A stretch of DNA of 64,000 nt from assembly GCA_018713745.1 (NCBI GenBank), contig DVOH01000038.1:31938-95937 (forward strand), given 5' to 3'. This DNA is from Candidatus Stercoripulliclostridium merdipullorum (GTDB lineage: Bacteria; Bacillota; Clostridia; Christensenellales; DTU072). Below the pieces are notes generated by a model, which was given only the letters and a program-made list of their open reading frames with translations, did not search any database and had not been told where the DNA came from. Position numbers and translations under genes: made by a program. Positions 2,338 through 39,282 of this stretch are shown here, piece by piece; position 1 is the first letter of the stretch; each line of letters starts with the position of its first letter.

Positions 2338-2341
2338 TTGC

Positions 2342-4978: not shown

Positions 4979-4987
4979 GAGATTGTT

Positions 4988-16817: not shown

Positions 16818-16823
16818 CAGGCA

Positions 16824-18938
16824 ATGAAGTTAGTCATCGTAGAATCGCCTTCCAAGGCAAAAACCATCCAGAAGTATCTCGGCGCGGGGTATCGGGTGAT
16901 GGCGTCGTGCGGACACGTCAGCGATCTGCCCGAAAAGACACTCGGGATCGATCTCGAACACAATTTCAAACCCGAATACGTCAGCAACCCCAAGCAGCGC
17001 GAAATTATCAAGAAACTCAAGGCCGCCGTCAAAGAGAGCGAGGACGTATATCTTGCGACCGACCCGGACCGCGAAGGGGAAGCGATCAGCTGGCATCTTG
17101 CGCAGAATCTCGGGCTGACGGACACGAAAAACAGGATCGAGTTCAACGAAATCAGCTCCAAAGCCGTACAGCAGGCAATCGGCAAACCGCGCCCGCTGAA
17201 CATGCAACTGGTTGACGCGCAGCAGGCAAGGCGCGTCCTCGATCGTCTGGTCGGATATAAGATCAGTCCCATTCTGAGCCGCAAAATCCGCTCGGGACTT
17301 TCGGGCGGCAGAGTGCAGTCTGCGGCGCTGAAAATGATCGTCGACCGCGAACGCGAAATCAAAGCGTTCGTACCCGAAGAATACTGGAACATTACCGCCA
17401 TCCTTCTGAAGCCCGGCGTGCGCGCTCCGCAGATCAAAGCGGCATTTGTCGACATCAACGGCAAAAAGAAAAAGCTCGGCAACGAAGCGGAGGCAAAAGC
17501 CGTTCTCGACGCGCTGGGCAGCGCACAGTGGAAGGTTGACAGCGTTAAGCGCGGGATTTCGCATTTCCGACCGACGGCGCCGTTTACGACTTCGACGTTG
17601 CAGCAGGACGGTTCGCAGAAGCTGGGGCTTTCTTCTCCGCGCGTCATGCAAATTGCGCAGCAACTTTACGAGGGGATCGACCTGCCCGGCGAGGGACAGA
17701 CGGCGTTTGTCACTTATATCCGTACCGACTCCGTCCGTGTTTCGGCGGAAATGCAACAGGCGACCCTGCAATTCATCCGCGAAAAATACGGACCCGATTA
17801 CGCGCCCGCCCGTCCCAACGTTTACGCCGCAAAAGGGCAAAACGTGCAGGACGCGCACGAAGCCATCCGTCCCATTTCGTTAGAGCGCACGCCCGAAAGC
17901 GTCAAGGACAAAATTCCCCGCGATCATTATCGTCTTTACAAGCTGATTTACGACCGCTTTGTCGCCAGTCAGATGACGGATGCCGTTTACAACACGCTGA
18001 CGGTGCGCGTCGAAGGCTTGCAGGGCGGAACGGTTTACGGATTCAAAGCGACGGGAAAAGCCATCGCGTTCAAGGGATACACCGTTGCGTACGAAACCGA
18101 AAAAAACGACGAGGAAGAGATGCCCGACGGCATCAATATCCCCGATCTGACCGATGGGGAGGCGTTGAATCTCAAAGAACTCAAGCCCGAACAGAAATTC
18201 ACCAAACCGCCGTCACGTTATACCGAGGCGACGCTGATCAAATCGATGGAGGAAGCAGGGATCGGGCGTCCGTCGACTTACGCGACGGTTATTTCGGTTC
18301 TTGCCAAGCGCGAATACATGGCGAAGGAGCAAAAATTCCTTAAGCCCACCAATCTCGGAGAAACGGTTACCGAGTTTATGGAAACGTTTTTTGCCAACAT
18401 CGTCGATCTGAAGTTTACCGCCAATATGGAAGTCAAGCTCGACGAAATCGAACACGGTTCGGAGTGGCAAAAGATTATCCGCGACTTCTATCCCGCTTTC
18501 AGCAAAGAAGTTTCCGCCGCTTACAATAACGACAAAAAACTGACCGTTGCCGACGAAGTCAGCGACGTGATTTGCGAAAAATGCGGCGCGCACATGGTGG
18601 TCAGGGAAGGGCAGTACGGCAAGTTTTTGGCGTGTCCCAACTATCCGCGCTGCAAGAACATCAAAAACATCATCGAGCCCGTTGCGGTCTGTCCCGACTG
18701 CGGCGGTCCCATTACCAAACGTCGGAGCAAAACCGGCAAGACCTTTTACGGATGCGGCAATTATCCCAAATGCAAGTTTATGTCCTGGGAAATCCCCGCG
18801 CCGATCTATTGCCCCGCATGCGGTAGCGTTATGCGGATCGTAGAGGAAGGCGACGTCAAAAAATACGTCTGTACCAAGCGAACCTGCGGACACGTCGTCG
18901 CGGCACCTTCGGAGCCCGAAGGCAAAGAGGAGGCATAA
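16824..18938 (+). CDS. topA: DNA topoisomerase I
   Basis: Toprim start MKLVIVESPSKAKTIQKYLG, a catalytic domain, and three C-terminal CxxC...CxxC zinc ribbons. Confidence 0.97.
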   Translation: MKLVIVESPSKAKTIQKYLGAGYRVMASCGHVSDLPEKTLGIDLEHNFKPEYVSNPKQREIIKKLKAAVKESEDVYLATDPDREGEAISWHLAQNLGLTDTKNRIEFNEISSKAVQQAIGKPRPLNMQLVDAQQARRVLDRLVGYKISPILSRKIRSGLSGGRVQSAALKMIVDREREIKAFVPEEYWNITAILLKPGVRAPQIKAAFVDINGKKKKLGNEAEAKAVLDALGSAQWKVDSVKRGISHFRPTAPFTTSTLQQDGSQKLGLSSPRVMQIAQQLYEGIDLPGEGQTAFVTYIRTDSVRVSAEMQQATLQFIREKYGPDYAPARPNVYAAKGQNVQDAHEAIRPISLERTPESVKDKIPRDHYRLYKLIYDRFVASQMTDAVYNTLTVRVEGLQGGTVYGFKATGKAIAFKGYTVAYETEKNDEEEMPDGINIPDLTDGEALNLKELKPEQKFTKPPSRYTEATLIKSMEEAGIGRPSTYATVISVLAKREYMAKEQKFLKPTNLGETVTEFMETFFANIVDLKFTANMEVKLDEIEHGSEWQKIIRDFYPAFSKEVSAAYNNDKKLTVADEVSDVICEKCGAHMVVREGQYGKFLACPNYPRCKNIKNIIEPVAVCPDCGGPITKRRSKTGKTFYGCGNYPKCKFMSWEIPAPIYCPACGSVMRIVEEGDVKKYVCTKRTCGHVVAAPSEPEGKEEA

Positions 18939-28481: not shown

Positions 28482-28502
28482 TCGTTTGCATCGTATCGAT
28501 CG

Positions 28503-28537
28503 ACAGCCGTTTCCAACCGGAAACGGCTGTTTTTTTG
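28503..28537 (+). terminator. Strong rho-independent terminator ending the long housekeeping run
   Basis: A 12 bp stem, ACAGCCGTTTCC-aacc-GGAAACGGCTGT, followed by TTTTTTT. Confidence 0.8.
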
Positions 28538-28614
28538 CTTTTTTCAAGCGAAAAAAAAGAAAATCCGCCTCAAAAAATTTTTCCGAGTTGTCCAAAAATT
28601 TTCACACCTCTCCC

Positions 28615-28644
28615 TTGACATCGGCAAATTTCGTTTGCTATACT
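28615..28644 (+). promoter_or_regulatory. Near-consensus sigma-A promoter in front of the phage-derived cluster
   Basis: TTGACA (28615-28620), an 18 nt spacer, then TATACT (28639-28644). An A/T-rich region lies upstream. Confidence 0.6.
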
Positions 28645-28688
28645 GATATCGAATCAGAACAAATGTTCGTAAATTCAACGGAGGGTGT

Positions 28689-29192
28689 ATGTTAGACAGT
28701 ATCTTTGCAAAAACGGCGTTGTCCGTCAGACCCGAAATTTCGTTCGGTCTCAACAGCTATCGCAAACGGATCGAAACGTTGACGGGTTATCGGTACAACA
28801 CGGCGGGGGAGTGCGCCGAGCTGACGTTTGCAAAAATCGAAGCGATTCAACGGGCGATGGAGCGGCTTTCGGTTTTGTCCAATGCCGTCGACGCGGCGGT
28901 GGCGTTGTTGAACGATCGGCAGAGGCGGCTCATCGACTTAGTATATTTCAAGGGACAGCCGCGCGAATCCGTCATGGCGGAAATGAAGCTTTCTCCCACG
29001 CAATACAAGTATCTCAAAAATGTTTCGGTCAAAAAAATAGCAGGGTATCTCAATATTCTCGGGTTTGACAACGAGCGGTTTCTCGCGTATTTCAATGCCG
29101 AACCCGCGGTCGTCAGAAATTACGAAATTCTGTTGCTGCGCCGTGCGGCTTGTTGCTTCGGAGGGGATGAAGATGTCGCCCGATCTGTATAA
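28689..29192 (+). CDS. Sigma-70 region-4-like HTH regulator (phage late-gene activator type)
   Basis: The 167 aa segment RQRRLIDLVYFKGQPRESVMAEMKLSPTQYKYLKNVSVKKIAGYL resembles sigma region 4 / ArpU-RinA-like activators. A GGAGGG RBS lies upstream. Confidence 0.5.
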   Translation: MLDSIFAKTALSVRPEISFGLNSYRKRIETLTGYRYNTAGECAELTFAKIEAIQRAMERLSVLSNAVDAAVALLNDRQRRLIDLVYFKGQPRESVMAEMKLSPTQYKYLKNVSVKKIAGYLNILGFDNERFLAYFNAEPAVVRNYEILLLRRAACCFGGDEDVARSV

Positions 29193-29454
29193 AACTTTGC
29201 TCAAAAAAGCGGTTGGTTATTCCGTCAAAGAAACGGTGACCGAGTATGTCGTCGAAGAGGACGGAACGCGCCGCGCCGTGCGGGAAAAGACGCAAAAGAA
29301 ATATGTTCCGCCCGATATCGCCGCCTTAAAAACCTACCTCGAACTGGTCGAAAGCAAGCAGCGCGGAGAGTTGTCGGCAATGTCGGACGAAGCCCTCGAA
29401 GCAGAACGCCTTCGCTTGCTGAAAGAATTGGAAGCGATTTCTCACTCGTCGTAA
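29167..29454 (+). CDS. Small phage protein; terminase small subunit candidate
   Basis: About 95 aa. The motif KKYVPPDIAALKTYLE resembles the conserved ...PPD..A..F.L.N segment of several Firmicute-phage small terminases. The start could be 29167 or 29173, after a GGAGGGG RBS. Confidence 0.4.
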   Translation: MKMSPDLYKTLLKKAVGYSVKETVTEYVVEEDGTRRAVREKTQKKYVPPDIAALKTYLELVESKQRGELSAMSDEALEAERLRLLKELEAISHSS

Positions 29455-30149
29455 AAGCGTTTGCGTTTTCCTTTGGGGCGGAACAGCAAAAAGATAACCG
29501 CGACGGCAGGGACGGCAAGCCCGACGATGACAATGATGCGCAGATCTCTGCGGTCAAGTCCCGAAGGCGGGTCGGTATCTTCGACGGAGGGATCGGTCGG
29601 ATCGACGACTTCTTGCGGGATTTCTTCGGGTACGAATACGGGAAAATCGGTTTCGGGCATCGTCGTACGGTCGGCTTTGAGATATCCGTAATACTGATTG
29701 TACTGAACATAGTACCACACCGCGTCGGCGGCAGGATGTTCGCCGAGGAAGGTAAAAGGCTGCTCGACGGGGATTTCGACAACGTCGCTTGCCGAGAGAT
29801 CGGGGCGGCTTTTTAATTTGATGGCGGCAAACTCGGCGTATTCGGGCGCGATCGAAAGCTGACACATCGTTCCGGTTGCCGCGGTGTGATAGCCCGTGGT
29901 GCCGACAACGTTTTTGCTGACTTTTCCGCTGACGCCGTTGAACGTTACATAGTAGTACGCGTCGTCGAGATTGTTGATCCGCGCGTAATAGCTGTCGGGC
30001 AGCAAAAAGATTTTTTCGCCCATTTCGTTAAGCAGCCAGACTTCGCCGTCTACGACGATATGCGGCGTATCGGTTGCGGCAAATGCCGCATCGACGGGCT
30101 TCGACGCCAGCGTTGCGATTACAACGATAAGCAATAGGATCCGTTTCAT
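29442..30149 (-). CDS. Signal-peptide protein with two SH3b-like domains and a C-terminal TM anchor
   Basis: MKRILLLIVVIATLASKPVDAAFA signal peptide. Two SH3b-type segments end GVSGKVSKNVV and YYGYLKADRT. A Pro/Asp/Glu linker, the TM helix IIVIVGLAVPAVAVIFLLF and a basic tail follow. A GAGGT RBS is present, and TATAAT on the - strand corresponds to 30165-30170. Confidence 0.7.
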   Translation of the reverse strand: MKRILLLIVVIATLASKPVDAAFAATDTPHIVVDGEVWLLNEMGEKIFLLPDSYYARINNLDDAYYYVTFNGVSGKVSKNVVGTTGYHTAATGTMCQLSIAPEYAEFAAIKLKSRPDLSASDVVEIPVEQPFTFLGEHPAADAVWYYVQYNQYYGYLKADRTTMPETDFPVFVPEEIPQEVVDPTDPSVEDTDPPSGLDRRDLRIIVIVGLAVPAVAVIFLLFRPKGKRKRFYDE

Positions 30150-30241
30150 AGCTACCTCAACGGGATTATATCCTGTCGCAAAGGGAGTTAAAACGGAACC
30201 TTTGTAAAAAAATAAATAATTTCGTCAAAAGGAGAAGGGGT

Positions 30242-30565
30242 ATGGAGATCAGATCGGACGTATTCGATATTGCAAGGCGGCTGAAAGAGATCGATCCGAG
30301 GTATCGTTTGTATTATCGACCGGGCAAAGGATTTTCGCTCAAAACGGAAGGGGCGGCGGGTGAACTTCGATTGCCCTTCGATACGTTGGACGCAAGAACG
30401 GTCGAATATGTCAGAAAAACGCGGGTGGAGCGCAGCGACTGTTTGCGACGGGAGATCGAGGAGGACAATCGACGCGCGGAAGCCGCGGCGATGAAAGACG
30501 CCCTTCGATCGACCGAAGAGCAGATCGCGCTCAGCGTCGACAAGGTGAAACATGAACGCGCGTAA
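30242..30565 (+). CDS. Hypothetical protein immediately upstream of TerL (alternative TerS candidate)
   Basis: 107 aa with an AAGGAGAAGGGG RBS. It overlaps the TerL start by 14 nt and has a charged helical C-terminus. Confidence 0.5.
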   Translation: MEIRSDVFDIARRLKEIDPRYRLYYRPGKGFSLKTEGAAGELRLPFDTLDARTVEYVRKTRVERSDCLRREIEEDNRRAEAAAMKDALRSTEEQIALSVDKVKHERA

Positions 30566-31997
30566 ACAGCTGGAATCCGTCGTTGCCCGCTTGCGGGAGA
30601 TTGAAGCGGAACAAAAGATTCGGTATTCCAAAAACGCTATTTCAAGATACAATACCGGGGAAAAGGTGCATTTGAAACAAATGGAATTTCACCGTTCGCC
30701 CAAGCGCAACCGCTGGGTGTTCGGCGGCAACCGCAGCGGAAAAACCGAGTGCGGCGCCGTCGAAACGGTATGGCTTGCCCGCGGCATTCACCCATACCGC
30801 AAAAATCTGAAAGCGACGGATGGCTGGGTGGTGTCGGTCAGTTACGAAGTGCAGCGGGAGGTGGCGCAGGCAAAAATTCTCAATTATCTCAATCCCGACT
30901 GGATCGAAAAAATCGTCATGCACGAGGGGACGCGCGGATCGCCGTATTCGGGGATTATCGATACCATTTACGTTCGGTCGGCATTGGGCGGGATCTCCAA
31001 AATCGCCTTCAAATCGGCAGATCAGGGACGGGAAAAGTTTCAAGGGGCGTCGCTCGATTACGTCTGGTTTGACGAAGAGCCGCCCTTTGATATTTACGAG
31101 GAATGCCGTATGCGCGTACTGGACCGCAAGGGCGACATTTTCGGCACGATGACGCCGCTGAAGGGGTTGACTTGGGTGTATGACGAAATTTATCTCAATC
31201 CCGGCGGCAATCCCGAAATCTGGTATATCTTTATGGAATGGGCGGACAATCCTTATCTCGACCCCGAAGAAGTCGCGCTCTATGCCGCAACGCTTTCGTC
31301 CGAGTCGTCCGACAGCAGGCGTTACGGAAGATTCCGATCGGGCGAAGGGTTGGTATATCCCGAGTTCGATCCCTCGGTGCACGTGGTCGATCCCTTTCCC
31401 CTTCCGCCCGAGTGGCAAAGCAACATCAGCATCGACCCGGGGCTGAACAATCCGCTTTCCTGTCATTTTTATTACCAGGATTACGACGGCGTCGTTTACG
31501 TCGCCGAAGAGCATTACGAGCGGGGCAAACCCGTCGATTATCATGCCGAACGCATCAAGGAAATCGCCGATCGCCTGAACTGGCATCGCAATCACAACGG
31601 CATGATCGACGCCCTGATCGATTCTGCCGCCGCACAGCGCACCCTTGCCGCCGAAAAAAGCGTCGCCGAACTCTTTTACGATCACGGCATCGCCGCCGAT
31701 ACCAAGGTCAACAAAGATCTGTTCTCGGGCATCGCGACGGTCAGGGACTACTTTGTTGCGCGCCCGCCGCGCATCGTAATTTTCAGAAACTGCGTCAATC
31801 TGATCCGCGAACTCAAAGGGTACTGGTGGGGGCAAGGGGACGTTCCCCGCAAAAAAGACGATCACGCGCTGGACGAACTGCGCTATTATCTGATGACCAG
31901 ACCCCTCAACCGCGCCCCCGAGATCAAGGAGACGGGACGGGTATTGCGCCACAAAGAAAAATTGGCGCGCGCCCATCGACGCGATCAATACCGTTAA
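30552..31997 (+). CDS. Phage terminase large subunit
   Basis: Walker A FGGNRSGKTECG, Walker B DYVWFDEEP, the coupling motif TMTP, and the nuclease motifs ISIDPG and DDHALDELRY. Confidence 0.93.
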   Translation: MNARKQLESVVARLREIEAEQKIRYSKNAISRYNTGEKVHLKQMEFHRSPKRNRWVFGGNRSGKTECGAVETVWLARGIHPYRKNLKATDGWVVSVSYEVQREVAQAKILNYLNPDWIEKIVMHEGTRGSPYSGIIDTIYVRSALGGISKIAFKSADQGREKFQGASLDYVWFDEEPPFDIYEECRMRVLDRKGDIFGTMTPLKGLTWVYDEIYLNPGGNPEIWYIFMEWADNPYLDPEEVALYAATLSSESSDSRRYGRFRSGEGLVYPEFDPSVHVVDPFPLPPEWQSNISIDPGLNNPLSCHFYYQDYDGVVYVAEEHYERGKPVDYHAERIKEIADRLNWHRNHNGMIDALIDSAAAQRTLAAEKSVAELFYDHGIAADTKVNKDLFSGIATVRDYFVARPPRIVIFRNCVNLIRELKGYWWGQGDVPRKKDDHALDELRYYLMTRPLNRAPEIKETGRVLRHKEKLARAHRRDQYR

Positions 31998-32007
31998 AGG
32001 AGGAATT

Positions 32008-33852
32008 ATGTCAATCACAACGGTTTACGAGGAAGATCTCGTAAAAGAAGTAACCGCGGATTTTCAAAACCGCCGCGAGATGCGCCGCAACATCGAAAGC
32101 AAATGGTTGCTTAACATCAATTTTATGCTGGGCAATCAGTATTCGGGCATCTCTCCCGGGGGCGATATCGTCGACTACGGCAAGCAATATTATTGGCAGG
32201 AACGGGAGGTATTCAACCACATCGCGCCCCTGATCGAAACGCGACTTGCCAAGTTTGCCCGCGTCAACTGCTCGGTCAACGTTCGCCCCGCAACCGCGGA
32301 GGAAAACGACGTCCGCATCGCAAAACTTTCCACCAAGCTGATCGAAGCCACCCAGCGCGAAAACAACTTTATCCGTCTTTCGAACGAAGCCAACTATTGG
32401 GCGGAACTGACGGGGACGGTCTTTTACAAAATCGTCTGGGGCGGGGACAGCGAAGGGGTACGGCTTGCCGTCTGTCCCCCGTACGAAATTTATCCCGATA
32501 CTCTCGGCGCAAGCGGCTTGCAGGAGTGCCGATCGCTGATTCATGCCCGCGCCTATCCCGTCGAAACCATCCGCGAAATCTGGGGGAAGGAAGTCAAAGG
32601 CGGCTCCGTTTCGGTCATCAACATGGATACCTCCGAGGGGATCGGCGGCAACGGCTATACCGCAAGCAACTTCAAAGTCTTTTCGGACGAGAAAAAAGGC
32701 TATGCCGTCGTCATCGAACGCTACGAGCTTCCGACCGAACGCTATCCCGAAGGACGATTGGTTATCGTTGCGGGGGACGCTTTGTTGTACGAAGGTTCGT
32801 TGCCCTATGTCAACGGCGGGGGTGGCACGCGGACGTTCCCGTTTGTCCGTCAGGCGTCACTCGAGCAACCGGCAAGTTTTTACGGGATCAGTATCATCGA
32901 GCGTTTGATCCCCGTTCAGCGGGCGTACAATGCCGTCAAAAACCGTAAGCACGAGTTTCTCAACCGACTTGCCGCGGGCGTGATGATGGTCGAAGACGGT
33001 TCGATCGACGTCGACAGCCTGGAAGAGGAAGGGCTTTCTCCCGGCAAACTTCTGGTTTACCGCCGCGGCGCAACGCCGCCCGGGCTGATGAATGCGGGGA
33101 GCGTCCCGACAGAGTTCAGAGACGAAGAGGATCGCCTGCTTGCCGAATTCATCAATATTTCGGGAGCGTCCAACTTGAACGACGTCATGGTATCGTCGTC
33201 GGGACAGCTCAGCGGTTATGCGTTGTCGCTGATTATCGAACAGGATTACAGCCGTCTGAACGTGACGACCGAGAATATCCGCAATGCCGTGCGCGAAATG
33301 GCGGCGCAGATTCTCAGACTTTATCGGCAGTTTTCACCTTCGACGCGGATGATGCGCGTCAGCGGAGAAAACGGGGAGCTGGAAGTGGTTTCGTTCGAAG
33401 GCAGTCAGCTGACCTCGGACGATATCGTGACCGAAGCCGACGCCGAGATGGTCGAAACGCCCGCAACGCGAAAAACAATGGTGTTCGATCTGCTCAAATA
33501 CGGATTGCTGAACGACGCGACGGGTTCGATCAGCGAGTATAACAAGGTCAAAGTGCTCGAAATGCTGGGGTTCGGCAACTGGGAAAGCGCCAGAAGCCGC
33601 GACGAACTGCATCTGAAAAAAGCCGCCATCGAAAATGCCGAAATGGCGGAAGGCAAGGATCCCGGGATCGAGGAGTTTGACGATCACGACCTGCATGTGG
33701 GCGAACATATCGCGGCGCTGATTGCAGGACGGGACAGCTTGTCGGAAGAAGCCAAGACGCAACTCAATCGACATATCAAGCAGCACAAAGTTTACAAACG
33801 GCTGACAGCGGAAGCCGAAGCCGTCGGGACGGGTGTCCCGCGTCAAATTTAA
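32008..33852 (+). CDS. Phage portal protein (family not resolved)
   Basis: 614 aa, placed directly after TerL and before the scaffold and capsid genes. Its size and acidic helical C-terminal region are typical of portals. Confidence 0.8.
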   Translation: MSITTVYEEDLVKEVTADFQNRREMRRNIESKWLLNINFMLGNQYSGISPGGDIVDYGKQYYWQEREVFNHIAPLIETRLAKFARVNCSVNVRPATAEENDVRIAKLSTKLIEATQRENNFIRLSNEANYWAELTGTVFYKIVWGGDSEGVRLAVCPPYEIYPDTLGASGLQECRSLIHARAYPVETIREIWGKEVKGGSVSVINMDTSEGIGGNGYTASNFKVFSDEKKGYAVVIERYELPTERYPEGRLVIVAGDALLYEGSLPYVNGGGGTRTFPFVRQASLEQPASFYGISIIERLIPVQRAYNAVKNRKHEFLNRLAAGVMMVEDGSIDVDSLEEEGLSPGKLLVYRRGATPPGLMNAGSVPTEFRDEEDRLLAEFINISGASNLNDVMVSSSGQLSGYALSLIIEQDYSRLNVTTENIRNAVREMAAQILRLYRQFSPSTRMMRVSGENGELEVVSFEGSQLTSDDIVTEADAEMVETPATRKTMVFDLLKYGLLNDATGSISEYNKVKVLEMLGFGNWESARSRDELHLKKAAIENAEMAEGKDPGIEEFDDHDLHVGEHIAALIAGRDSLSEEAKTQLNRHIKQHKVYKRLTAEAEAVGTGVPRQI

Positions 33853-33864
33853 CGGGAGGGAAAC

Positions 33865-34365
33865 ATGGAAGAGATCAAAACGAAGGAACCAACGGCGGCG
33901 GAACTCGCCACAGGCGACAACTCTCAAGCCGAGTTCTACGGGAAATTCAAAAACAAAGAGGGGTTAATGGATGCTTACCGATCGCTGGAAGCCGAATTTA
34001 CGCGGCGCTCCCAGCGGCTGAAAGAGCTTGAAAGCGTCGAAAACCAACGTGCCGAAGCGGACAAATGGAGCCGCAAGGTGGACGAGTTGACGGCGAAATA
34101 CCCCGTCGCAGCCAATCTGACCGACGAAATCGCAGCGGTCCTCGAGAATCGCAAAGAGTTGCTGAGAGAGGAAAACTGTCTCGAAACGGCACTGCTGACG
34201 GTTCTGGCGGAAGGGTATGCGAAAAAACGGGACGAAGGCGGAGGGCGGACGCCGCCCAAGGTCAGCGTCAAAAAGGGCGAAATTCCGCTGGTTACCCCGG
34301 TACGGCCGACGTCGATCCGGGAAGCGGGCAAAATCGCCGAAAAAATCTTAAAATCCAACGGATAG
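33865..34365 (+). CDS. Capsid scaffolding protein
   Basis: 166 aa helical, charged protein between portal and MCP. The segment AYRSLEAEFTRRSQRLKELE is typical of scaffold proteins. Confidence 0.6.
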   Translation: MEEIKTKEPTAAELATGDNSQAEFYGKFKNKEGLMDAYRSLEAEFTRRSQRLKELESVENQRAEADKWSRKVDELTAKYPVAANLTDEIAAVLENRKELLREENCLETALLTVLAEGYAKKRDEGGGRTPPKVSVKKGEIPLVTPVRPTSIREAGKIAEKILKSNG

Positions 34366-34374
34366 GAGGAAAAC

Positions 34375-35547
34375 ATGGTCACTTTAAGCAGTGCGGACAA
34401 AGTCTTGAAAAACGTTTATCTCGGTGTGATCTGCGATCAGCTGAACAAACGGACCAATCCGTTCTACGCCGCCATTCAGCAGGGCAGCGAACTGGTCAAC
34501 GGAAAAAACGCCGTCGCGATCATCCGCAACGGAATCAACGGCGGGGTCGGCAGCGGAACGGAATCGGGAGCGTTGCCCGCAGCCAAGAACAGTACTTATT
34601 ACCAGCTGATTGCCGATCTCAAAAACATTTACGGCACGATCGAGATCAGCGACAAAGCCTTGCGCGCTTCGCAAAACTCCGCCAACGCGCTGGTTAATCT
34701 CCTCAATGACGAGATGGAAGCGTTGCTCGATTCGGCAAAATTCAATTTCGGCAGAATGCTTTGGCAAAACGGCTCGGGCGTTCTGACCAAGGTTGCGTCT
34801 TTGGAAGGACATTCGAGTACGTCCGAAATCCCCGTAGAGGACACGCGCAATCTGATGGAAGGGATGACGATCGACTTTGCCAACGGCAATATCGAGGTTT
34901 CGACGGGGCATACCGTCAGCGAGATTAACCGCGCCGACAAAATCATCCGGATCAGTCCCGCGCTCAGCGAACTGTCGGTGATTCAGGCGGGTACCAAGAT
35001 CTGCCTGCAAGGCTCCAACGAAAAAGAGATTTACGGATTGCCGTATCTCTTCGATCACACGATCTCGATGTTCTACAACACGCCGCGCAGTCTTGTGCCG
35101 GCAATTCTGCCCAAAACGACCACGGTCAGCGGCGAACTGTCTTCCGAAATGATGCAGACCGCCTTGGACGATCTCGAAATCGCTTCGGGCAACGAAACCG
35201 ATATGATTCTCGGTTCGCACGAAACGCGCAAAAAATACTTTGCCTATCTGCAGACAACCAGAACCAATATCGACTATATGAATCTCGACGGCGGCTTCAA
35301 AGCGCTGTCGTACAACGGGATTCCTTTTGTAGCCGATCGTTTCTGTCCCGACGGAGAAATGTACTTCGTCAACACCAAAGATTTCCGCCTCGCAAGTCTT
35401 TGCGACTGGCAGTGGATCGAAGGGGAAAACGGACGGATTCTGACGCAGATCGAAAAAACGCCTACTTACATGGCTACGTTGGTCAAATACGCCAACCTCA
35501 TCTGTGTCCGTCCCAAAGGTCAGGCTTGCATCAAGGGATTCAACTGA
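34375..35547 (+). CDS. Major capsid protein (HK97-fold expected)
   Basis: 390 aa following the scaffold gene. Composition and position are typical for an MCP, and a strong hairpin lies downstream. Confidence 0.75.
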   Translation: MVTLSSADKVLKNVYLGVICDQLNKRTNPFYAAIQQGSELVNGKNAVAIIRNGINGGVGSGTESGALPAAKNSTYYQLIADLKNIYGTIEISDKALRASQNSANALVNLLNDEMEALLDSAKFNFGRMLWQNGSGVLTKVASLEGHSSTSEIPVEDTRNLMEGMTIDFANGNIEVSTGHTVSEINRADKIIRISPALSELSVIQAGTKICLQGSNEKEIYGLPYLFDHTISMFYNTPRSLVPAILPKTTTVSGELSSEMMQTALDDLEIASGNETDMILGSHETRKKYFAYLQTTRTNIDYMNLDGGFKALSYNGIPFVADRFCPDGEMYFVNTKDFRLASLCDWQWIEGENGRILTQIEKTPTYMATLVKYANLICVRPKGQACIKGFN

Positions 35548-35559
35548 TCGCGATAACCC

Positions 35560-35584
35560 GGAGGGGCGGCTTTGCCGCCTCTCC
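35560..35584 (+). promoter_or_regulatory. Stable stem-loop immediately after the capsid gene (attenuator or mRNA stabiliser candidate)
   Basis: GGAGGGGCGGC-ttt-GCCGCCTCTCC, 11 bp with one G-T pair. No T-tract follows, and the RBS of the next gene starts 2 nt downstream. Confidence 0.4.
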
Positions 35585-35596
35585 GAAGGAGGGTGT

Positions 35597-36130
35597 ATGA
35601 AACTGAAAGACGCAATTTTGCGCTCGGTATATCTGCTCGGGATGGAAGAGGAAGTCGACCTTGCCGTCGACGGACTGAAGCGAAATCGCCTGATCGACTG
35701 CGGCAACAGCGTTTATGCCGAAATCGCAGGACAATACGTGCACCTCAAAACCGTCGAACCGATCGAATTCTCGGACGGACGGGCGTACTATACCGACTTC
35801 GGCTTTCCCGTCAGGGAAATCCTGTCCGTCAAGGACAACCGCGGCGAAGTTCCGTTTGAGATGACGCCGACTTATGTTGCGGCAAAGACGGCGGGCACGG
35901 TCGAAGTCCGCTATGTCTATCACCCTTTGCCGGCAGGATTGGAGGACGACTTGCTGCTCCCGCCGCAGTATACCGAGCATATTGTGGCGCAGGGGATTGC
36001 CGCGGAGTATTGCTACCGTACGGGACTGGTGGACGAAGCGATATTCTATCAGGCGCGGTTTGAGAGCGCGGTGACCAACATCGCCCGACGCATCCGTCCC
36101 GCCAATCTGCCTGCGAGGAAACTGCTATGA
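35597..36130 (+). CDS. Hypothetical virion protein (head-completion or adaptor candidate)
   Basis: 177 aa with a GGAGGG RBS. It is the first gene after the MCP, and the next gene overlaps its end by 4 nt (start 36127, stop 36130). Confidence 0.5.
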   Translation: MKLKDAILRSVYLLGMEEEVDLAVDGLKRNRLIDCGNSVYAEIAGQYVHLKTVEPIEFSDGRAYYTDFGFPVREILSVKDNRGEVPFEMTPTYVAAKTAGTVEVRYVYHPLPAGLEDDLLLPPQYTEHIVAQGIAAEYCYRTGLVDEAIFYQARFESAVTNIARRIRPANLPARKLL

Positions 36131-37620
36131 GGACGCCGAGAGTAGAAAAACTGCCTACATTAAGTCGCCTTAACTACAAAATTTCACGGTTCAACAACAT
36201 TGACGGGCGTGAAGCGGGCGGGGAAATTCCGCTCAATATATGTAGCTATGGCTACAATATAAAGTTCAGGTCGGGTATGTTGTGCGGCGGCATGGGGATT
36301 GATCAACCCGTCGTTACGCTGGAGGACGGAAGCCAACGCGAGATCCCCAATCTTTCCAAGTTTGCGCGGGCGATGCACCGCATCGCGCTGTATCGCCGCA
36401 AGGATCCCGTCACCGGGGCGCGCGACGACAGACTGCTTGCGTTCAGCGACGTCGAAAACAACGTCTACGAGACAAAGGTGGTCCGCGGCGACTATACCGT
36501 CAACGAGGCGATCAAGATCGAAGGCTATGACGCCGAGTGCATCAATTACTATACGGGCGGCAAAGACTGTCTGCTGGTATTTCTGCCGTACGGGGGGATG
36601 TATCTTTACGACGGCGATACCGCCGTTCTGCACGATACGCCGCCTCTGACTTCGGTCTGCATGCATTACGACCGCGTCTACGGCGTCGGCGCCGACGGCA
36701 CGTCCCTTCATTTCAGTGCGCCGCTCGAGCCGCACAATTTCGCCCCGGAATCGGGGGGCGGTACCATCCGGTTTATGGACGAGGGCGGAAAAGTCGAAAA
36801 GGTGGTATCTTTCAAAGACTATCTGCTTATTTTCCGCGAGCACGCCGTGCATCGGATGCGCGCTTATACCGATCCGTCCGAGTATACCGTGACGAAGATT
36901 TTCGAGAGCGACACCGTCATTCACGCCAATACCGTCGCGATTACCGACGACGTGATGATGTTTGTGATCGGGACGCATCTGATGATCTTCGACGGGTACA
37001 CCGTCAGGCGATACGCCGAAGGTCTTTCGGCACTGATCGATACCGTCGATCACGGAAGTGCCGTGTTTTTCGAAAACAAATATTATCTCGGCTGTCGCAT
37101 CAAAACGCGGGGAGAAATCGTGGGCGACGAAAAAATTCCCAGCGTCGACATCAACAACGCCTTGCTCGAAGTCGATCCGTATTCCGACGACGTTGCGGTT
37201 CTGCGCGGCACCGACGTGCGTCGTATGACGCCGGTTGTGCTCGGCAAACTGTCGTTTTTGTTGATTCTGTTCAACAATTACCGCCAGGCGTATTGCGCGC
37301 GCTTGTCGGATTCGGGCAGGATCATGGGTAATGTGCTTGAAAAACTTTGGATCAGTCCCACAAGCGATCTCGGCGAGCGGGGACGCGTCAAATCGCTCAA
37401 ACGCGTATACATTACGGCGGAAGGACCTTTGACGCTCGGGATCGGACAGGGGGGCGAATTGCAGACGCGCACGGTTTACGCTTCGCCGTCCGAGCAGGTG
37501 CTACCCTTCCGAACGAGGGGGAACGATCTTTATATCCGGATCGAGACGGAGGGGGACGGTTTCCGTGTATACGGGATGACGCTGGTGCTCGATCTGATCA
37601 GGAGGTACTATGCAAATTGA
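36127..37620 (+). CDS. Hypothetical beta-rich virion protein (tail hub/nozzle candidate)
   Basis: 497 aa with recurring blade-like hydrophobic-strand segments (LLVFLPYGGMYLYDG, RVYGVGADGTSLHFS, YLLIFREHAVHRM, MMFVIGTHLMIFDG, KYYLGCRIK). Confidence 0.5.
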   Translation: MRTPRVEKLPTLSRLNYKISRFNNIDGREAGGEIPLNICSYGYNIKFRSGMLCGGMGIDQPVVTLEDGSQREIPNLSKFARAMHRIALYRRKDPVTGARDDRLLAFSDVENNVYETKVVRGDYTVNEAIKIEGYDAECINYYTGGKDCLLVFLPYGGMYLYDGDTAVLHDTPPLTSVCMHYDRVYGVGADGTSLHFSAPLEPHNFAPESGGGTIRFMDEGGKVEKVVSFKDYLLIFREHAVHRMRAYTDPSEYTVTKIFESDTVIHANTVAITDDVMMFVIGTHLMIFDGYTVRRYAEGLSALIDTVDHGSAVFFENKYYLGCRIKTRGEIVGDEKIPSVDINNALLEVDPYSDDVAVLRGTDVRRMTPVVLGKLSFLLILFNNYRQAYCARLSDSGRIMGNVLEKLWISPTSDLGERGRVKSLKRVYITAEGPLTLGIGQGGELQTRTVYASPSEQVLPFRTRGNDLYIRIETEGDGFRVYGMTLVLDLIRRYYAN

Positions 37621-37732
37621 AACGCTTGCGACGTTACTGAATGAAGTAATCGTCAAACTGATGGCGCTGTCGGTCAAGACGGACGCTATCCTCAAAAAGC
37701 TCCAATCGACTTCGGAACACACGGAGGTGTAA
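37610..37732 (+). CDS. Small 40-codon ORF, absent from the ORF track
   Basis: An ATG 4 nt after a GGAGG (37601-37605), encoding MQIETLATLLNEVIVKLMALSVKTDAILKKLQSTSEHTEV. It fills the gap between two genes and overlaps the upstream gene by 11 nt. Confidence 0.3.
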   Translation: MQIETLATLLNEVIVKLMALSVKTDAILKKLQSTSEHTEV

Positions 37733-37733
37733 G

Positions 37734-38780
37734 ATGGCAAACTGGATCGAAAAAGCCGAAGAACGGGTGGAGAGCACGATTCAGAAACTGAAGGACGCCC
37801 TCAACAAAAAGAACACCCCATCGGCATCCGAGACCGTCGACGCCGATCTGAAAAAGAAGGGGGAATCGCTGGTTCAGGCACTCGAAACGATGGAGCGGGA
37901 ATACGAAAAATCCTTGTTTCCGGATTTTGCGGCAGAGGTTCCGGAAAGCACGGGAATGGAGCAGATCGAGTATACGCCGCCGACGGACGAGGAACTGAAG
38001 AAGCAGGCGGAAACGGCGTTGCTGCCCGATTATACCGAAGGCGTTGCCAAAGCGGAAGAAACGTACTTGGAGACGTCGGGCGACATTGCGGCAGATCGGG
38101 CGGAAGCGACGGAAGAGGAGCGAATCCGCTATGACGATCTGTCGGCATTGCTGGACGATATGCGTTTGCAACATCAGTCCGATATGATCCGGCAGGGGTT
38201 GGTGCACTCGACGATCAACACCGAAGGGCAGGCGGCGACCGAGCGATACGGGGAGCAGGAGCGGCAGGCGATCGAAAACCGCTATAAGGCGACCTATGAC
38301 GCGCTGGATCAGAAAGCGGAAGAGGCGCGGCTGAAATACGACAACGCCATCCGCTCGTACGATCTGAAGTACGCTGCCGATCTCGAAAAGAGAATCGCCG
38401 ATCTGACGGCGGAGCGGGACAAGCAGACCGAAAAGATCAACGCATACAATCAAAAAGTAGCCGAAGCCGAGCTGAAATATCAGGAAGAGCGGCAGAAAAA
38501 ACTTGCCGAACTCGAGCAGAAAGCCTGGGAGGACTACCGCAAAAACAACGCGCAGCGGCTGGCAGAAGCCGAAGCGGGGCGGTATACGCCCGAGGAAGCC
38601 GCCGACCGCGACAAGCGGCTGGAAGAAGCGAGGTCGTTTTTCGGAGAAATGAGTGCGGAAGACGCACTGAAACTGTTTTCGGCAAACAATGCGTCGCTGT
38701 CCGACCTCTTGGGGGTTGAACGGTATCAGACGCTGTTCGGCGAACTGTTTGTCCGCGCGATTGCGGAAGGGAGGCAATGA
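37734..38780 (+). CDS. Acidic coiled-coil protein (needle, plug or internal protein candidate)
   Basis: 348 aa, very rich in Glu/Ala/Lys/Arg, with long heptad-like stretches (EKINAYNQKVAEAELKYQEERQKKLAELEQKAWEDY). It has no TM segment. Confidence 0.6.
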   Translation: MANWIEKAEERVESTIQKLKDALNKKNTPSASETVDADLKKKGESLVQALETMEREYEKSLFPDFAAEVPESTGMEQIEYTPPTDEELKKQAETALLPDYTEGVAKAEETYLETSGDIAADRAEATEEERIRYDDLSALLDDMRLQHQSDMIRQGLVHSTINTEGQAATERYGEQERQAIENRYKATYDALDQKAEEARLKYDNAIRSYDLKYAADLEKRIADLTAERDKQTEKINAYNQKVAEAELKYQEERQKKLAELEQKAWEDYRKNNAQRLAEAEAGRYTPEEAADRDKRLEEARSFFGEMSAEDALKLFSANNASLSDLLGVERYQTLFGELFVRAIAEGRQ

Positions 38781-39028
38781 GAATGAAAACGCAACTGATT
38801 CCGCTGACGGTCAAAACGCAATGTGACAACGGCAGGTGTCGCAACCGTGCCGAATATATAGTCGCACGCGAAGATACGCCCGTGTATATGCAACTGCACT
38901 TGTGCGGGGAGTGTCTCAAAACGATCGCGGCGCTGGCGAAGGAGACGCAGGCAAAATCATCGCCGCGGTCGAACAAAACAAAAAAAGGAGAGGAAAATGT
39001 GGGAGCAGATTCTGGAAGCCGCCGCTAA
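38777..39028 (+). CDS. Small Cys-rich (zinc-ribbon-like) protein
   Basis: 83 aa with C-x4-C ... C-x2-C (CDNGRC ... CGEC). It has an ATGA overlap with the upstream gene, and its 3' end overlaps the holin gene by 32 nt. Confidence 0.4.
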   Translation: MRMKTQLIPLTVKTQCDNGRCRNRAEYIVAREDTPVYMQLHLCGECLKTIAALAKETQAKSSPRSNKTKKGEENVGADSGSRR

Positions 39029-39248
39029 CAGCGGCTTGTGGGCAATGTTGTTTGTGACACTGTTTGTCATACAGCTGAAAGACAGCAAGGAGCGAGAAGG
39101 AAAGTATCAGGAAACCATCGCTTCGCTGGGCGACAAGCTGAAAGTCGTTGCCGAAATCAAGGCAACCGTCGATACCATTCGCGAAAAAATCGAAAGCGGT
39201 ACGGCGCTGAAGTCCTCGGTGACGACACAGACTGAAAAATCCGATTAA
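38997..39248 (+). CDS. BhlA/UviB-family holin-like protein
   Basis: 83 aa with a single N-terminal TM helix (LWAMLFVTLFVIQL), then KDSKEREGKYQETI and a coiled C-terminus, matching the BhlA/UviB pattern. An AAGGAGAGG RBS lies upstream. Confidence 0.65.
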   Translation: MWEQILEAAANSGLWAMLFVTLFVIQLKDSKEREGKYQETIASLGDKLKVVAEIKATVDTIREKIESGTALKSSVTTQTEKSD

Positions 39249-39255
39249 ACGGAAA

Positions 39256-39282
39256 AACGGGCGGAAATTCCGCCCGTTTTTT
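39256..39282 (+). terminator. Rho-independent terminator closing the phage-derived cluster
   Basis: CGGGCGG-aaatt-CCGCCCG followed by TTTTTT. Confidence 0.8.

What the first reader, a model, noticed from the sequence alone, without database searches (positions are those of the whole stretch)
28615..39282. Compact phage-derived capsid/packaging cluster with no mobility, replication, tail-fibre or lysin genes, embedded between nifSU and the atp operon: candidate GTA-like or capsid-forming satellite system
Directly seen: a block of about 10.7 kb is bounded by a strong terminator plus near-consensus sigma-A promoter (28503-28644) and by a strong terminator (39256-39282). It encodes a sigma-region-4-like regulator, a small-terminase-like ORF, a clear TerL (Walker A/B and nuclease motifs), a 614 aa portal, a scaffold, a 390 aa capsid protein, three post-capsid proteins (177 aa; 497 aa beta-rich; 348 aa acidic coiled coil), a Zn-ribbon ORF and a BhlA-like holin. 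The + strand genes from 30242 to 39248 are packed with overlapping or abutting stops and starts. Not seen anywhere in the block: integrase or recombinase, repressor/antirepressor, replication genes, tape measure, tail tube, baseplate, tail fibre or spike, or endolysin. Both flanks are core genes, so nothing is hidden next door. Codon signature also matters. TerL, MCP and the coiled-coil gene carry full-length codon-aligned antisense ORFs (30642-32018, 34384-35706, 37692-38777). This means they lack in-frame TTA/CTA/TCA codons, exactly like the host housekeeping genes (atpD, aspS, aconitase). That argues for long residence and amelioration rather than recent acquisition. Inference: this is not a normal inducible prophage. 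It could be a domesticated particle-producing locus (gene transfer agent-like, possibly podovirus-derived), a capsid-forming satellite that hijacks a helper's remaining parts, or a decaying remnant. All ORFs appear intact, which weighs against simple decay.
Basis: partly seen in the sequence, partly recalled or inferred. Interest (0 to 1): 0.85.

Follow-up and report, generated by a model that had tools for sequence, protein, structure and literature searches.

The report
Domesticated short-tailed phage particle gene cluster
A chicken-gut Clostridia bacterium carries a compact, long-resident set of phage head and short-tail genes with no means to replicate or move, and this set most likely makes gene-transfer-agent-like particles of the kind recently shown in Faecalibacterium.

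Summary
Window 28.6-39.3 kb is a 10.7 kb block between nifSU and the atp operon. It encodes a late regulator, a short TerS-like protein, TerL, portal, scaffold, podovirus-type capsid protein, adaptor-like protein, a tail nozzle (confirmed by fold), a helical DUF7934 protein, a Zn-ribbon protein and a BhlA holin. I found no integrase, replication, lysogeny, fibre or endolysin genes, no att-like repeats and no nearby tRNA.

Two corrections. The TerS-like gene is the 93 aa ORF at 29173-29454, not the 107 aa ORF. A conserved minus-strand membrane/SH3 gene (29442-30149) was missed.

The same roughly 12-gene set occurs once each in at least 80 (probably about 600) species genomes of Christensenellales-like Clostridia. 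Its flanks are housekeeping genes that differ between clades. Core genes are nearly always intact. TerL and capsid diverge in step with neighbouring housekeeping genes. Codon usage matches the host.

The best reading is a vertically inherited, podovirus-derived GTA-like locus. Its nearest known analogue is FpGTA of Faecalibacterium (Nat Commun 2026), whose paper also saw GTA-like packaging in Christensenellaceae without naming a locus. Direct homology to FpGTA could not be tested, and particle production and DNA transfer are inferred. This is a new member of a known kind.

The parts
28502..28531 (+). Intrinsic terminator after nifU; upstream boundary of the block
   Evidence: 13 bp stem followed by a T run (sequence)
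28615..28644 (+). Sigma-A-type promoter in front of the regulator gene
   Evidence: TTGACA-18-TATACT, 11 of 12 matches, with an upstream TG. Function not tested.
28689..29192 (+). 167 aa late-gene regulator, sigma-70 region 4 / ArpU / RinA-like
   Evidence: phrog_36 transcriptional regulator 1e-9 and phrog_248 activator. Weak ArpU, RinA and sigma-70 matches. Equivalent regulators (families f11, f39) open the cluster in related loci.
29173..29454 (+).
   Evidence: phrog_309 terminase small subunit 1e-5, matching only profile positions 200-242 of 319. 19 of 25 family members hit phrog_309, best 9e-9. Family length is 85-105 aa throughout. It lies next to TerL in most loci.
29442..30149 (-). 235 aa membrane-anchored protein with signal peptide, SH3_3 domain and C-terminal membrane helix; divergently transcribed
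   Evidence: SH3_3 8.5e-5. Sequence features. Conserved at this place in 38 loci. dN/dS 0.2-0.4. Role unknown.
30242..30565 (+). 107 aa conserved protein of unknown role; probably a virion or assembly protein, not TerS
   Evidence: No family hit. In most loci it lies between the capsid and adaptor genes. FpGTA has a small particle-associated unknown at the same place.
30552..31997 (+). Large terminase TerL, 481 aa
   Evidence: Terminase_6N 2e-9, Terminase_6C 3e-4, phrog_2 2e-33. 57-70% identical across the clade.
32008..33852 (+). Portal protein, 614 aa, P22/SU10 type
   Evidence: P22_portal 4e-18, SU10_portal 1e-5, phrog_156 1.5e-33
33865..34365 (+). 166 aa scaffolding-like protein
   Evidence: Position between portal and capsid genes, conserved family in 65 loci. 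Assignment is by position only. No prohead protease is present.
34375..35547 (+). Major capsid protein, 390 aa, podovirus type
   Evidence: NCBIfam NF033394 capsid_maj_Podo 4e-64, above its cut-off. phrog_14242 6e-48. 3248 homologues.
35597..36130 (+). 177 aa adaptor-like protein (head-to-tail)
   Evidence: Weak SU10_adaptor match 0.0036, below the Pfam cut-off. Weak colinear hhalign match to the 'tail tube' protein of phage Shocker, E 0.02. Sits directly before the nozzle gene. Assignment is tentative.
36127..37620 (+). 497 aa tail nozzle / hub
   Evidence: AlphaFold2 model with pLDDT 84.7 and pTM 0.87. Foldseek hits: Pa223 tail 9nwi_Y 4e-21 (TM 0.68), VP1 8zkk_O, P22 gp10 8eap_D 1e-13, SU10 and T7 gp12 nozzles. 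A sequence profile also hits the SU10 chain 7z47_G at 0.005.
37734..38780 (+). 348 aa acidic all-helical DUF7934 protein; probably an internal virion (ejection) protein
   Evidence: DUF7934 2e-36. The model shows a long helical hairpin, pLDDT 80. Fold hits are weak only: 'internal virion protein' entries and proteins of phages Jasmine and Shocker. It sits where the internal proteins sit in T7-like gene order, and phage Shocker has the same order. The role is inferred.
38777..39028 (+). 81-83 aa Zn-ribbon protein, role unknown
   Evidence: Cys pairs in the sequence. Conserved family in 30 loci, placed between TerS and portal in most.
38997..39248 (+). 83 aa BhlA-family holin
   Evidence: Holin_BhlA 9e-16. 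A holin closes the cluster in about 20 loci, and some loci carry a Phage_holin_1 type next to or instead of it.
39256..39282 (+). Terminator-like hairpin; downstream boundary before atpB
   Evidence: ACGGGCGG-AAATT-CCGCCCGT followed by TTTTTTG, read from the sequence. The scan did not report it.

Best explanation
This is a domesticated, vertically inherited, podovirus-derived particle locus of the gene-transfer-agent kind. The host is Candidatus Stercoripulliclostridium merdipullorum.

Proposed mechanism:
1. The ArpU/RinA/sigma-like regulator (28689-29192) is made from a sigma-A promoter under host control. It switches on the structural genes in a fraction of cells.
2. Portal, scaffold and capsid protein build a small procapsid without a protease.
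3. The short TerS-like protein and TerL fill the procapsid by the headful with host DNA and no strong sequence preference.
4. The adaptor and nozzle close the portal to form a short tail. DUF7934 is carried inside the particle as an ejection protein.
5. The BhlA holin releases the particles, helped by a lysin encoded elsewhere or by host autolysins.
6. The particles cannot carry the whole locus and have no replication or integration functions. They move pieces of host DNA between related cells and do not spread themselves.

Shown here by computation: gene identities, absence of mobility genes, wide single-copy distribution, intactness, co-divergence with host genes, and ameliorated codon usage. 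Inferred: regulation, packaging of random DNA, the roles of DUF7934, p107, the Zn-ribbon protein and the SH3 protein, lysis, and transfer.
For: Nothing in or beside the block points to mobility.
- No integrase, replication, lysogeny, fibre or lysin gene is present, and the flanks are housekeeping genes.
- There are no att-like border repeats and no adjacent tRNA.

The distribution is wide and single-copy.
- The best 80 matches come from 80 different assemblies, mostly Christensenellales.
- The same gene set appears in two gene orders across these loci.

A census of 140 flanking ORFs shows only host-type families recurring: gyrase, ABC transporters, PhoH, ThyA and DHFR.

The genes are maintained by selection.
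- Among loci not cut by a contig end, TerL is intact in 90 of 96, portal in 113 of 120 and capsid in 131 of 134.
- Pairwise identity of capsid and TerL equals that of the neighbouring phosphoglucomutase (0.77 against 0.77, r 0.87) and RNase J.
- dN/dS is 0.05-0.5 for every gene.
- RSCU correlation with host genes is 0.935, and GC3 is equal.

No close phage relative exists in 50,697 phage records. The best are actinophages at 22-28% identity.

Published precedent is PMC12946183.
- The Faecalibacterium FpGTA I operon is 10.5 kb. It encodes a TerS without a DNA-binding domain, then TerL, portal, an unknown protein, capsid, a small unknown, adaptor, nozzle (PDB 8eap) and an abundant acidic protein annotated 'TolA'.
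- It makes particles of about 40 nm that hold 8.4-8.9 kb of host DNA.
- The same study saw GTA-like packaging of 4-7 kb fragments in Christensenellaceae MAGs and did not identify a locus for it.
Against: - No experiment bears on this locus. Particles, packaged DNA and transfer are all unobserved.
The FpGTA capsid is annotated 'N4-gp56 family', whereas this one is capsid_maj_Podo. The two may be separate domestications.
- No receptor-binding protein or endolysin is in the window. A holin alone does not lyse a Gram-positive cell.
- dS is saturated in almost all pairs, so the dN/dS values are rough.
- The chromosomal position differs between clades. This could reflect rearrangement, but past mobility is not excluded.
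- The TerS assignment rests on a 45-residue match. Which TerS domain is retained is not known.
Confidence: 0.68

Rival explanations
1. The locus is a domesticated particle with a use other than gene transfer. Examples are a killing particle in the manner of PBSX, a device for releasing DNA or proteins, or a programmed-lysis module. The capsid and packaging genes are kept because the particle itself, or the lysis that goes with it, benefits the population.
For: The conservation and purifying selection show that a function is kept but do not say which. The window lineage has no fibre or receptor-binding gene. The holin belongs to a family annotated as bacteriocin-related (phrog_2429). The FpGTA authors themselves leave open whether their particles deliver DNA.
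Against: Keeping TerS, TerL with its nuclease domain, portal and a nozzle points to DNA packaging and ejection. A 10.7 kb head-plus-short-tail set has no contractile or long tail of the kind that known killing particles use. Packaged host DNA was observed for the Faecalibacterium analogue and in Christensenellaceae.
Confidence: 0.17
2. The locus is a capsid-forming satellite (cf-PICI-like) that builds its own heads. It would rely on a helper phage for induction, tail fibres and lysis, and would package itself.
For: It encodes its own terminase, portal, scaffold and capsid but no fibre or lysin, as capsid-forming satellites do. At 10.7 kb its size is in the satellite range.
Against: There is no integrase, excisionase, replication or primase gene, AlpA-type regulator, att repeats or tRNA site. 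It is single-copy in every genome seen and diverges in step with housekeeping neighbours. It encodes its own adaptor and nozzle. Codon usage matches the host.
Confidence: 0.05
3. The locus is an inert remnant of a podovirus prophage that lost its early, replication and fibre genes and has not yet decayed.
For: The gene content is a subset of a podovirus late region. Distant full phages with the same module exist: locus L133 carries a replication initiator and a tailspike, and phage Shocker shares the gene order.
Against: The same subset recurs in at least 80 species with intact reading frames, dN/dS below 1 and divergence equal to housekeeping genes. A remnant would be sporadic and broken. The only apparent TerL break, in L081, is an assembly gap of 1336 N.
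Confidence: 0.05

Closest known systems
FpGTA of Faecalibacterium prausnitzii (Borodovich et al., Nat Commun 2026, PMC12946183)
   Same: Both are about 10.5 kb chromosomal operons in gut Clostridia. Both encode a TerS without an evident DNA-binding domain, then TerL, portal, a scaffold-position protein, capsid protein, a small unknown, adaptor and nozzle. The authors' structural match for their nozzle is P22 gp10, PDB 8eap, which is also among the top hits for the nozzle here. Both end with an abundant or conserved acidic helical protein. Both lack integrase and replication genes and are near-ubiquitous in their host clade.
   Different: The host order differs: Christensenellales-like here, Oscillospirales there. 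The capsid protein is annotated to a different NCBI family (capsid_maj_Podo here, 'N4-gp56 family' there). This cluster carries its own regulator, an SH3 membrane protein, a Zn-ribbon protein and a holin. No second locus with fibres and endolysin could be looked for beyond the window. Sequence homology was not tested. No experimental data exist for this locus.
RcGTA-type gene transfer agents of Alphaproteobacteria
   Same: Both are chromosomal head and packaging clusters that are vertically inherited and under purifying selection. Both have host-like codon usage, a TerS lacking the DNA-binding part, accessory genes possibly elsewhere, and no replication or integration genes.
   Different: RcGTA derives from a siphovirus (HK97-type head with protease, long tail, tape measure). 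This locus derives from a podovirus (scaffold, no protease, adaptor plus nozzle). The host phylum is different and no sequence relationship was seen.
Podoviruses with P22/SU10/T7-type tails, including Microbacterium phage Shocker and the uncultured phage in locus L133
   Same: They share the portal family, the capsid family (22-29% identity), the nozzle fold and the gene order terminase, portal, scaffold, capsid, then adaptor, nozzle and a helical protein.
   Different: Those are complete phages of 45-60 kb with replication, tailspike or fibre and lysis genes. This locus keeps only about 12 genes and sits among housekeeping genes.
Capsid-forming PICIs (cf-PICI satellites)
   Same: Both are small chromosomal elements that encode their own terminase, portal and capsid.
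   Different: cf-PICIs have integrase, att sites, a replication module and helper-responsive regulators. They make HK97-type heads that join helper tails. None of these features is present here.

Membership tests
Gene transfer agent (viriform) in the general sense | Phage-derived structural and packaging gene cluster fixed in the host chromosome and inherited vertically | tested here: met
   80 single-copy loci in 80 species assemblies, with 596 matches in all. Synteny is clade-specific. Capsid and TerL identity tracks phosphoglucomutase and RNase J.
Gene transfer agent (viriform) in the general sense | No replication, integration or lysogeny functions of its own | tested here: met
Gene transfer agent (viriform) in the general sense | Genes kept under purifying selection and adapted to the host | tested here: met
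   Core genes are intact in more than 93% of loci. dN/dS is 0.05-0.5, though dS is saturated. RSCU correlation with host genes is 0.935.
Gene transfer agent (viriform) in the general sense | Particles package essentially random host DNA in pieces smaller than the encoding locus | not testable with these tools
   Only indirect evidence exists. Fragments of 4-7 kb were seen for Christensenellaceae MAGs and 8.4-8.9 kb for FpGTA in PMC12946183.
Gene transfer agent (viriform) in the general sense | Delivery of packaged DNA to recipient cells | not testable with these tools
   No data. This has not been shown for FpGTA either.
FpGTA family | Gene content and order of operon I | tested here: met
   The paper's text and proteomics table were compared. 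The most common order in this clade is TerL, TerS, portal, scaffold, capsid, small unknown, adaptor, nozzle, acidic helical protein.
FpGTA family | Sequence homology of capsid, portal, TerL and nozzle to the FpGTA proteins (RCH50844-RCH50852) | not testable with these tools
   No FpGTA sequence could be obtained. Cluster look-ups of 20 TerL relatives returned no Faecalibacterium names. The capsid annotation differs.
FpGTA family | Second, unlinked operon with fibres, receptor-binding protein, holin and endolysin | tested here: inconclusive
   No such operon was found in the 64 kb window. The rest of the genome was not available. Some related clades carry a fibre-like gene inside the cluster.
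Capsid-forming PICI satellites | Integrase, att sites and a replication module | tested here: not met
Inducible prophage | Complete set of lysogeny, replication, morphogenesis and lysis genes | tested here: not met
   Only about 12 late-type genes are present, bounded by nifU and atpB.
Podovirus tail nozzle / hub proteins (P22 gp10, T7 gp12, SU10 nozzle) | Beta-propeller nozzle fold | tested here: met
   The model has pTM 0.87. Foldseek E-values are 4e-21 to 1e-9 against ten or more podovirus tail structures.

The most novel reading that the evidence does not exclude
This could be the unidentified locus behind the GTA-like packaging reported in Christensenellaceae. In that reading it is an anciently domesticated, clade-wide podovirus-derived gene transfer agent family. 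It would be present in several hundred species of Christensenellales-like Clostridia and distinct from, or only distantly related to, FpGTA. Its minimal conserved set would be about 12 genes, including a roughly 95 aa TerS and a divergently transcribed SH3 membrane protein. That would make short-tailed GTAs a general feature of gut Clostridia and not a Faecalibacterium peculiarity.
Probability: 0.45. Interest if true: 0.75.

Novelty: new member of a known kind. Interest (0 to 1): 0.6.

Why it matters
Until the 2026 Faecalibacterium report, gene transfer agents were known mainly from Alphaproteobacteria and a few scattered cases. That report saw GTA-like DNA packaging in several gut Clostridia families but tied it to genes only in Faecalibacterium.

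A conserved, vertically inherited, single-copy podovirus-type head and short-tail locus across hundreds of Christensenellales-like species gives a concrete candidate for the Christensenellaceae signal. It defines a small gene set that can be tested in culture. It also suggests that particle-mediated exchange of host DNA may be common in gut Firmicutes.

There is a practical point for viromics as well. IMG/VR files at least 50 of these loci as viral contigs, so they probably inflate counts of gut 'phages'.

Tried and rejected
- I tried to link the locus to FpGTA by sequence. A whole-library TerL search followed by cluster look-ups of 20 relatives gave no Faecalibacterium names.
- Word-index searches with the nozzle and DUF7934 proteins returned only 17 and 4 relatives. 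That was enough for structure prediction but not for taxonomy.
- PDB sequence-profile searches were uninformative for the capsid, adaptor and TerS families.
- The DUF7934 model has no significant structural match in the PDB and only weak ones among viral models. Its proposed role as an internal virion protein therefore rests on gene position and weak hits.
- Profile comparison with phage Shocker's adaptor, nozzle and helical proteins gave only weak colinear matches, with E 0.02, 0.02 and 0.14.
- The apparent TerL break in L081 is an assembly gap and not decay.
- dN/dS could not be measured well because dS exceeds 1 in nearly all available pairs.
- My first ORF caller picked the antisense ORFs and had to be replaced by a codon-usage-scored caller. 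The replacement under-calls genes in loci of different G+C, so family counts are lower bounds.
- A possible TTTGTA motif in front of the first late gene was not tested statistically, and I make no claim about it.
- I rejected the encapsulin reading because portal and terminase are present. I rejected the satellite, intact-prophage and remnant readings for the reasons given under the rival explanations.

Full report
**What is in the window**

It begins with a strong terminator after nifU (28502-28531) and a near-consensus sigma-A-type promoter (28615-28644). The genes that follow are listed in order.

- **28689-29192:** a 167 aa regulator. It hits phrog_36 at 1e-9 and has weak sigma-70 region 4, ArpU and RinA matches.
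- **29173-29454:** a 93 aa ORF that hits the terminase small subunit family phrog_309.
- **29442-30149, minus strand:** a 235 aa protein with a signal peptide, an SH3_3 domain and a C-terminal membrane anchor.
- **30242-30565:** a 107 aa ORF with no family.
- **30552-31997:** TerL (Terminase_6N and 6C, phrog_2 at 2e-33).
- **32008-33852:** a P22/SU10-type portal.
- **33865-34365:** a 166 aa protein in the scaffold position.
- **34375-35547:** the capsid protein. It scores 4e-64 against NCBIfam capsid_maj_Podo, above the cut-off, and 6e-48 against phrog_14242.
- **35597-36130:** a 177 aa protein with a weak SU10_adaptor match.
- **36127-37620:** a 497 aa beta-rich protein.
- **37734-38780:** a 348 aa DUF7934 protein (2e-36).
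- **38777-39028:** a Zn-ribbon protein.
- **38997-39248:** a BhlA-family holin (9e-16).

A hairpin with a T run at 39256-39282 closes the block.

Precomputed Pfam annotation of the same contig in public assemblies shows that the rest of the 64 kb window is housekeeping. It holds ffh, rpsP, trmD, rplS, comM, dprA, topA, hslUV, hisS, aspS, glyA and nifSU on one side. On the other side it holds the atp operon, aconitase, pta-ackA, plsX and rnc. The organism is Candidatus Stercoripulliclostridium merdipullorum, a chicken-gut Clostridia MAG.

**The tail proteins**

An AlphaFold2 model of the 497 aa protein has pLDDT 84.7 and pTM 0.87. It matches podovirus tail nozzles and hubs:
- Pseudomonas phage Pa223, E 4e-21, TM 0.68;
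- Vibrio phage VP1;
- P22 gp10 (8eap), E 1e-13;
- SU10, GP4 and T7 gp12.

So the cluster encodes a short tail, not merely a head.

The DUF7934 model is all-helical with a long hairpin. It has no significant match in the PDB. Its weak hits among viral models are to 'internal virion protein' entries and to proteins of Arthrobacter phage Jasmine and Microbacterium phage Shocker. These are the same cultured phages whose capsid proteins are the nearest in the phage collection, at 22-28% identity.

Shocker has the order terminase, portal, scaffold-position protein and capsid. Later it has a 'tail tube' protein, a 514 aa protein, a small ORF and a 244 aa helical protein. I therefore read DUF7934 as an internal or ejection protein by position and weak similarity. 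This is an inference.

The 107 aa ORF is not a small terminase. It has no terminase match, and in most related loci it lies after the capsid gene.

The TerS-like gene is the 93 aa ORF. Of 25 family members, 19 hit phrog_309. All are only 85-105 aa and cover about 45 of the 319 profile positions. This fits a small terminase that has lost a large part of the usual protein, as reported for RcGTA and FpGTA. Which domain is retained was not established.

The minus-strand SH3 membrane gene was overlooked. It is conserved inside the cluster in 38 loci.

**Distribution**

The capsid protein has 3248 relatives in the protein collection. Many lie on contigs of hundreds of kilobases to 2.4 Mb.

The best 80 come from 80 different assemblies, nearly all labelled Christensenellales, Christensenellaceae, Borkfalkia or unclassified Clostridia.

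tblastn and ORF clustering show the same gene set everywhere: regulator, SH3 membrane protein, TerL, short TerS, Zn-ribbon protein, portal, scaffold, capsid, p107, adaptor, nozzle, DUF7934 and often a holin. It occurs in two arrangements.
- The window and its nearest relatives (L003, L008, L055, L081) have TerS and p107 ahead of TerL, and the Zn-ribbon gene near the end.
- Most others have TerL, TerS, Zn-ribbon, portal, scaffold, capsid, p107, adaptor, nozzle and DUF7934.

Some clades add a 290-390 aa gene between nozzle and DUF7934. It has an N-terminal coiled coil and a beta-rich body, which looks fibre-like. The window lacks it.

**Not mobile, not decaying**

Flanking genes differ between clades but are host genes: RNase J, PhoH, YqfD, phosphoglucomutase, ABC transporters, gyrase, ThyA and DHFR. 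Among 140 flanking ORFs scanned against PHROGs, none of the 25 most frequently matched families (the only ones the tool lists, each hit by 2-3 ORFs) is an integrase, tail or lysis family.

The nifU-atpB position is conserved only within the species (L083-L085). Within clades the flanks are syntenic.

The window shows no att-like direct repeats at the borders and no nearby tRNA.

Among loci not cut by contig ends, TerL is intact in 90 of 96, portal in 113 of 120 and capsid in 131 of 134. The one apparent TerL break that I checked is an assembly gap.

For loci that share flanking genes, capsid and TerL identities equal those of the neighbouring phosphoglucomutase (mean 0.77 against 0.77, r 0.87) and RNase J (0.70 against 0.71-0.78). 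The head genes therefore evolve as slowly as housekeeping enzymes and in step with them.

dN/dS is 0.05-0.5 for all genes, but dS is saturated, so these values are rough.

In the window, GC, GC3 and the scarcity of TTA, CTA and TCA codons match the host. RSCU correlates at 0.935, against 0.97 between two halves of the host set.

**Relatives among real phages**

IMG/VR holds 54 related loci. Those with 42-47% capsid identity are mostly short contigs carrying the same compact module. They are probably these chromosomal loci mis-filed as viruses.

More distant loci look like true podophages. L133, for example, is on a 60 kb contig with capsid 29% and portal 40% identical, and it carries a replication initiator and a tailspike. 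This shows the likely ancestry.

**Comparison with what is known**

The held literature has one directly relevant paper, PMC12946183. It describes FpGTA in Faecalibacterium.

- Operon I is 10.5 kb. It encodes a TerS without an evident DNA-binding domain, TerL, portal, an unknown protein in the scaffold position, capsid, a small unknown, an adaptor and a nozzle whose structural match is PDB 8eap. It also encodes an acidic protein annotated 'TolA' that ranks third in abundance in purified particles.
- A second operon, 125 kb away, encodes fibres, a receptor-binding protein, a holin and an endolysin.
- The particles measure about 40 nm and hold 8.4-8.9 kb of host DNA.

The gene order and the nozzle's structural match are the same as here. 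The paper also reports GTA-like packaging of 4-7 kb fragments in Christensenellaceae MAGs but did not look for a locus in them.

I could not obtain any FpGTA sequence, so homology is untested. The capsid annotation differs ('N4-gp56 family' against capsid_maj_Podo), which leaves open an independent domestication.

**Verdict**

The satellite and remnant alternatives are not.

It is a new member of a recently established kind, podovirus-like GTA-like elements of gut Clostridia. Its conservation is unusually broad and it is a plausible candidate for an unexplained published signal.

What remains inferred is everything downstream of gene identity: induction by the regulator, packaging of random host DNA, particle release without a linked endolysin, and transfer.

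Noticed in passing
L050:1918-4479 (-), L016:1162-2991 (-); compare window 29442-30149 (-): In about 20 related loci a 600-900 aa secreted protein lies just upstream of the cluster's regulator on the opposite strand. It has a signal peptide, beta-propeller-like repeats, SH3 domains and a C-terminal membrane anchor. The window's 235 aa SH3 protein has the same end architecture. The role is unknown; it could be an envelope anchor or a receptor.
   Followed up: partly
L009:13315-14178, L012:4831-5955, L068:9771-10916: Some clades carry an extra 290-390 aa gene between nozzle and DUF7934. It has an N-terminal coiled coil and a beta-rich body, so it looks like a fibre or needle. It has no Pfam or PHROG family, and the window lineage lacks it.
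   Followed up: partly
L017, L018, L030, L080 capsid genes; protein P0085: One clade has a capsid protein of 456-468 aa with a C-terminal Flg_new / TIGR02543 repeat domain. This may be a built-in decoration domain.
   Followed up: no
IMG/VR loci L086-L132: IMG/VR lists about 50 of these compact chromosomal clusters as viral contigs. Most are on short contigs with the same gene set. They are probably GTA-like loci mis-filed as viruses.
   Followed up: partly
Proteins P0146, P0201, P0204, P0209, P0210, P0228, P0254; loci L102, L108, L130: Several TerL relatives are 780-900 aa and match in two stretches. In three long IMG/VR contigs only the C-terminal part of TerL matched. These may be inteins, insertions or fusions.
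   Followed up: no
window 14212-18938: comM, dprA and topA lie about 10 kb upstream of the cluster. DprA and ComM are the kind of recipient-side functions that RcGTA uptake uses (this comparison is from my own knowledge). I expect the arrangement to be ordinary for Firmicutes, but I did not check this, and no link to the cluster was tested.
   Followed up: no
window 30203-30210 and the equivalent place in L055, L081, L062, L004: A TTTGTA(A/G)A motif recurs shortly upstream of the first late gene in several loci. It may be part of a late promoter. It was not tested against chance.
   Followed up: no
window 52-2337, 2210-4138, 4148-5890 and 11894-14155: The window holds a 761 aa MBG/YDG-domain surface protein and several large or mid-size proteins without any family, including a 753 aa one. 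They appear unrelated to the cluster.
   Followed up: partly
window 37610-37732: Public gene calls include a 40 aa ORF that overlaps the end of the nozzle gene, just before DUF7934. Whether it is real is unknown.
   Followed up: no
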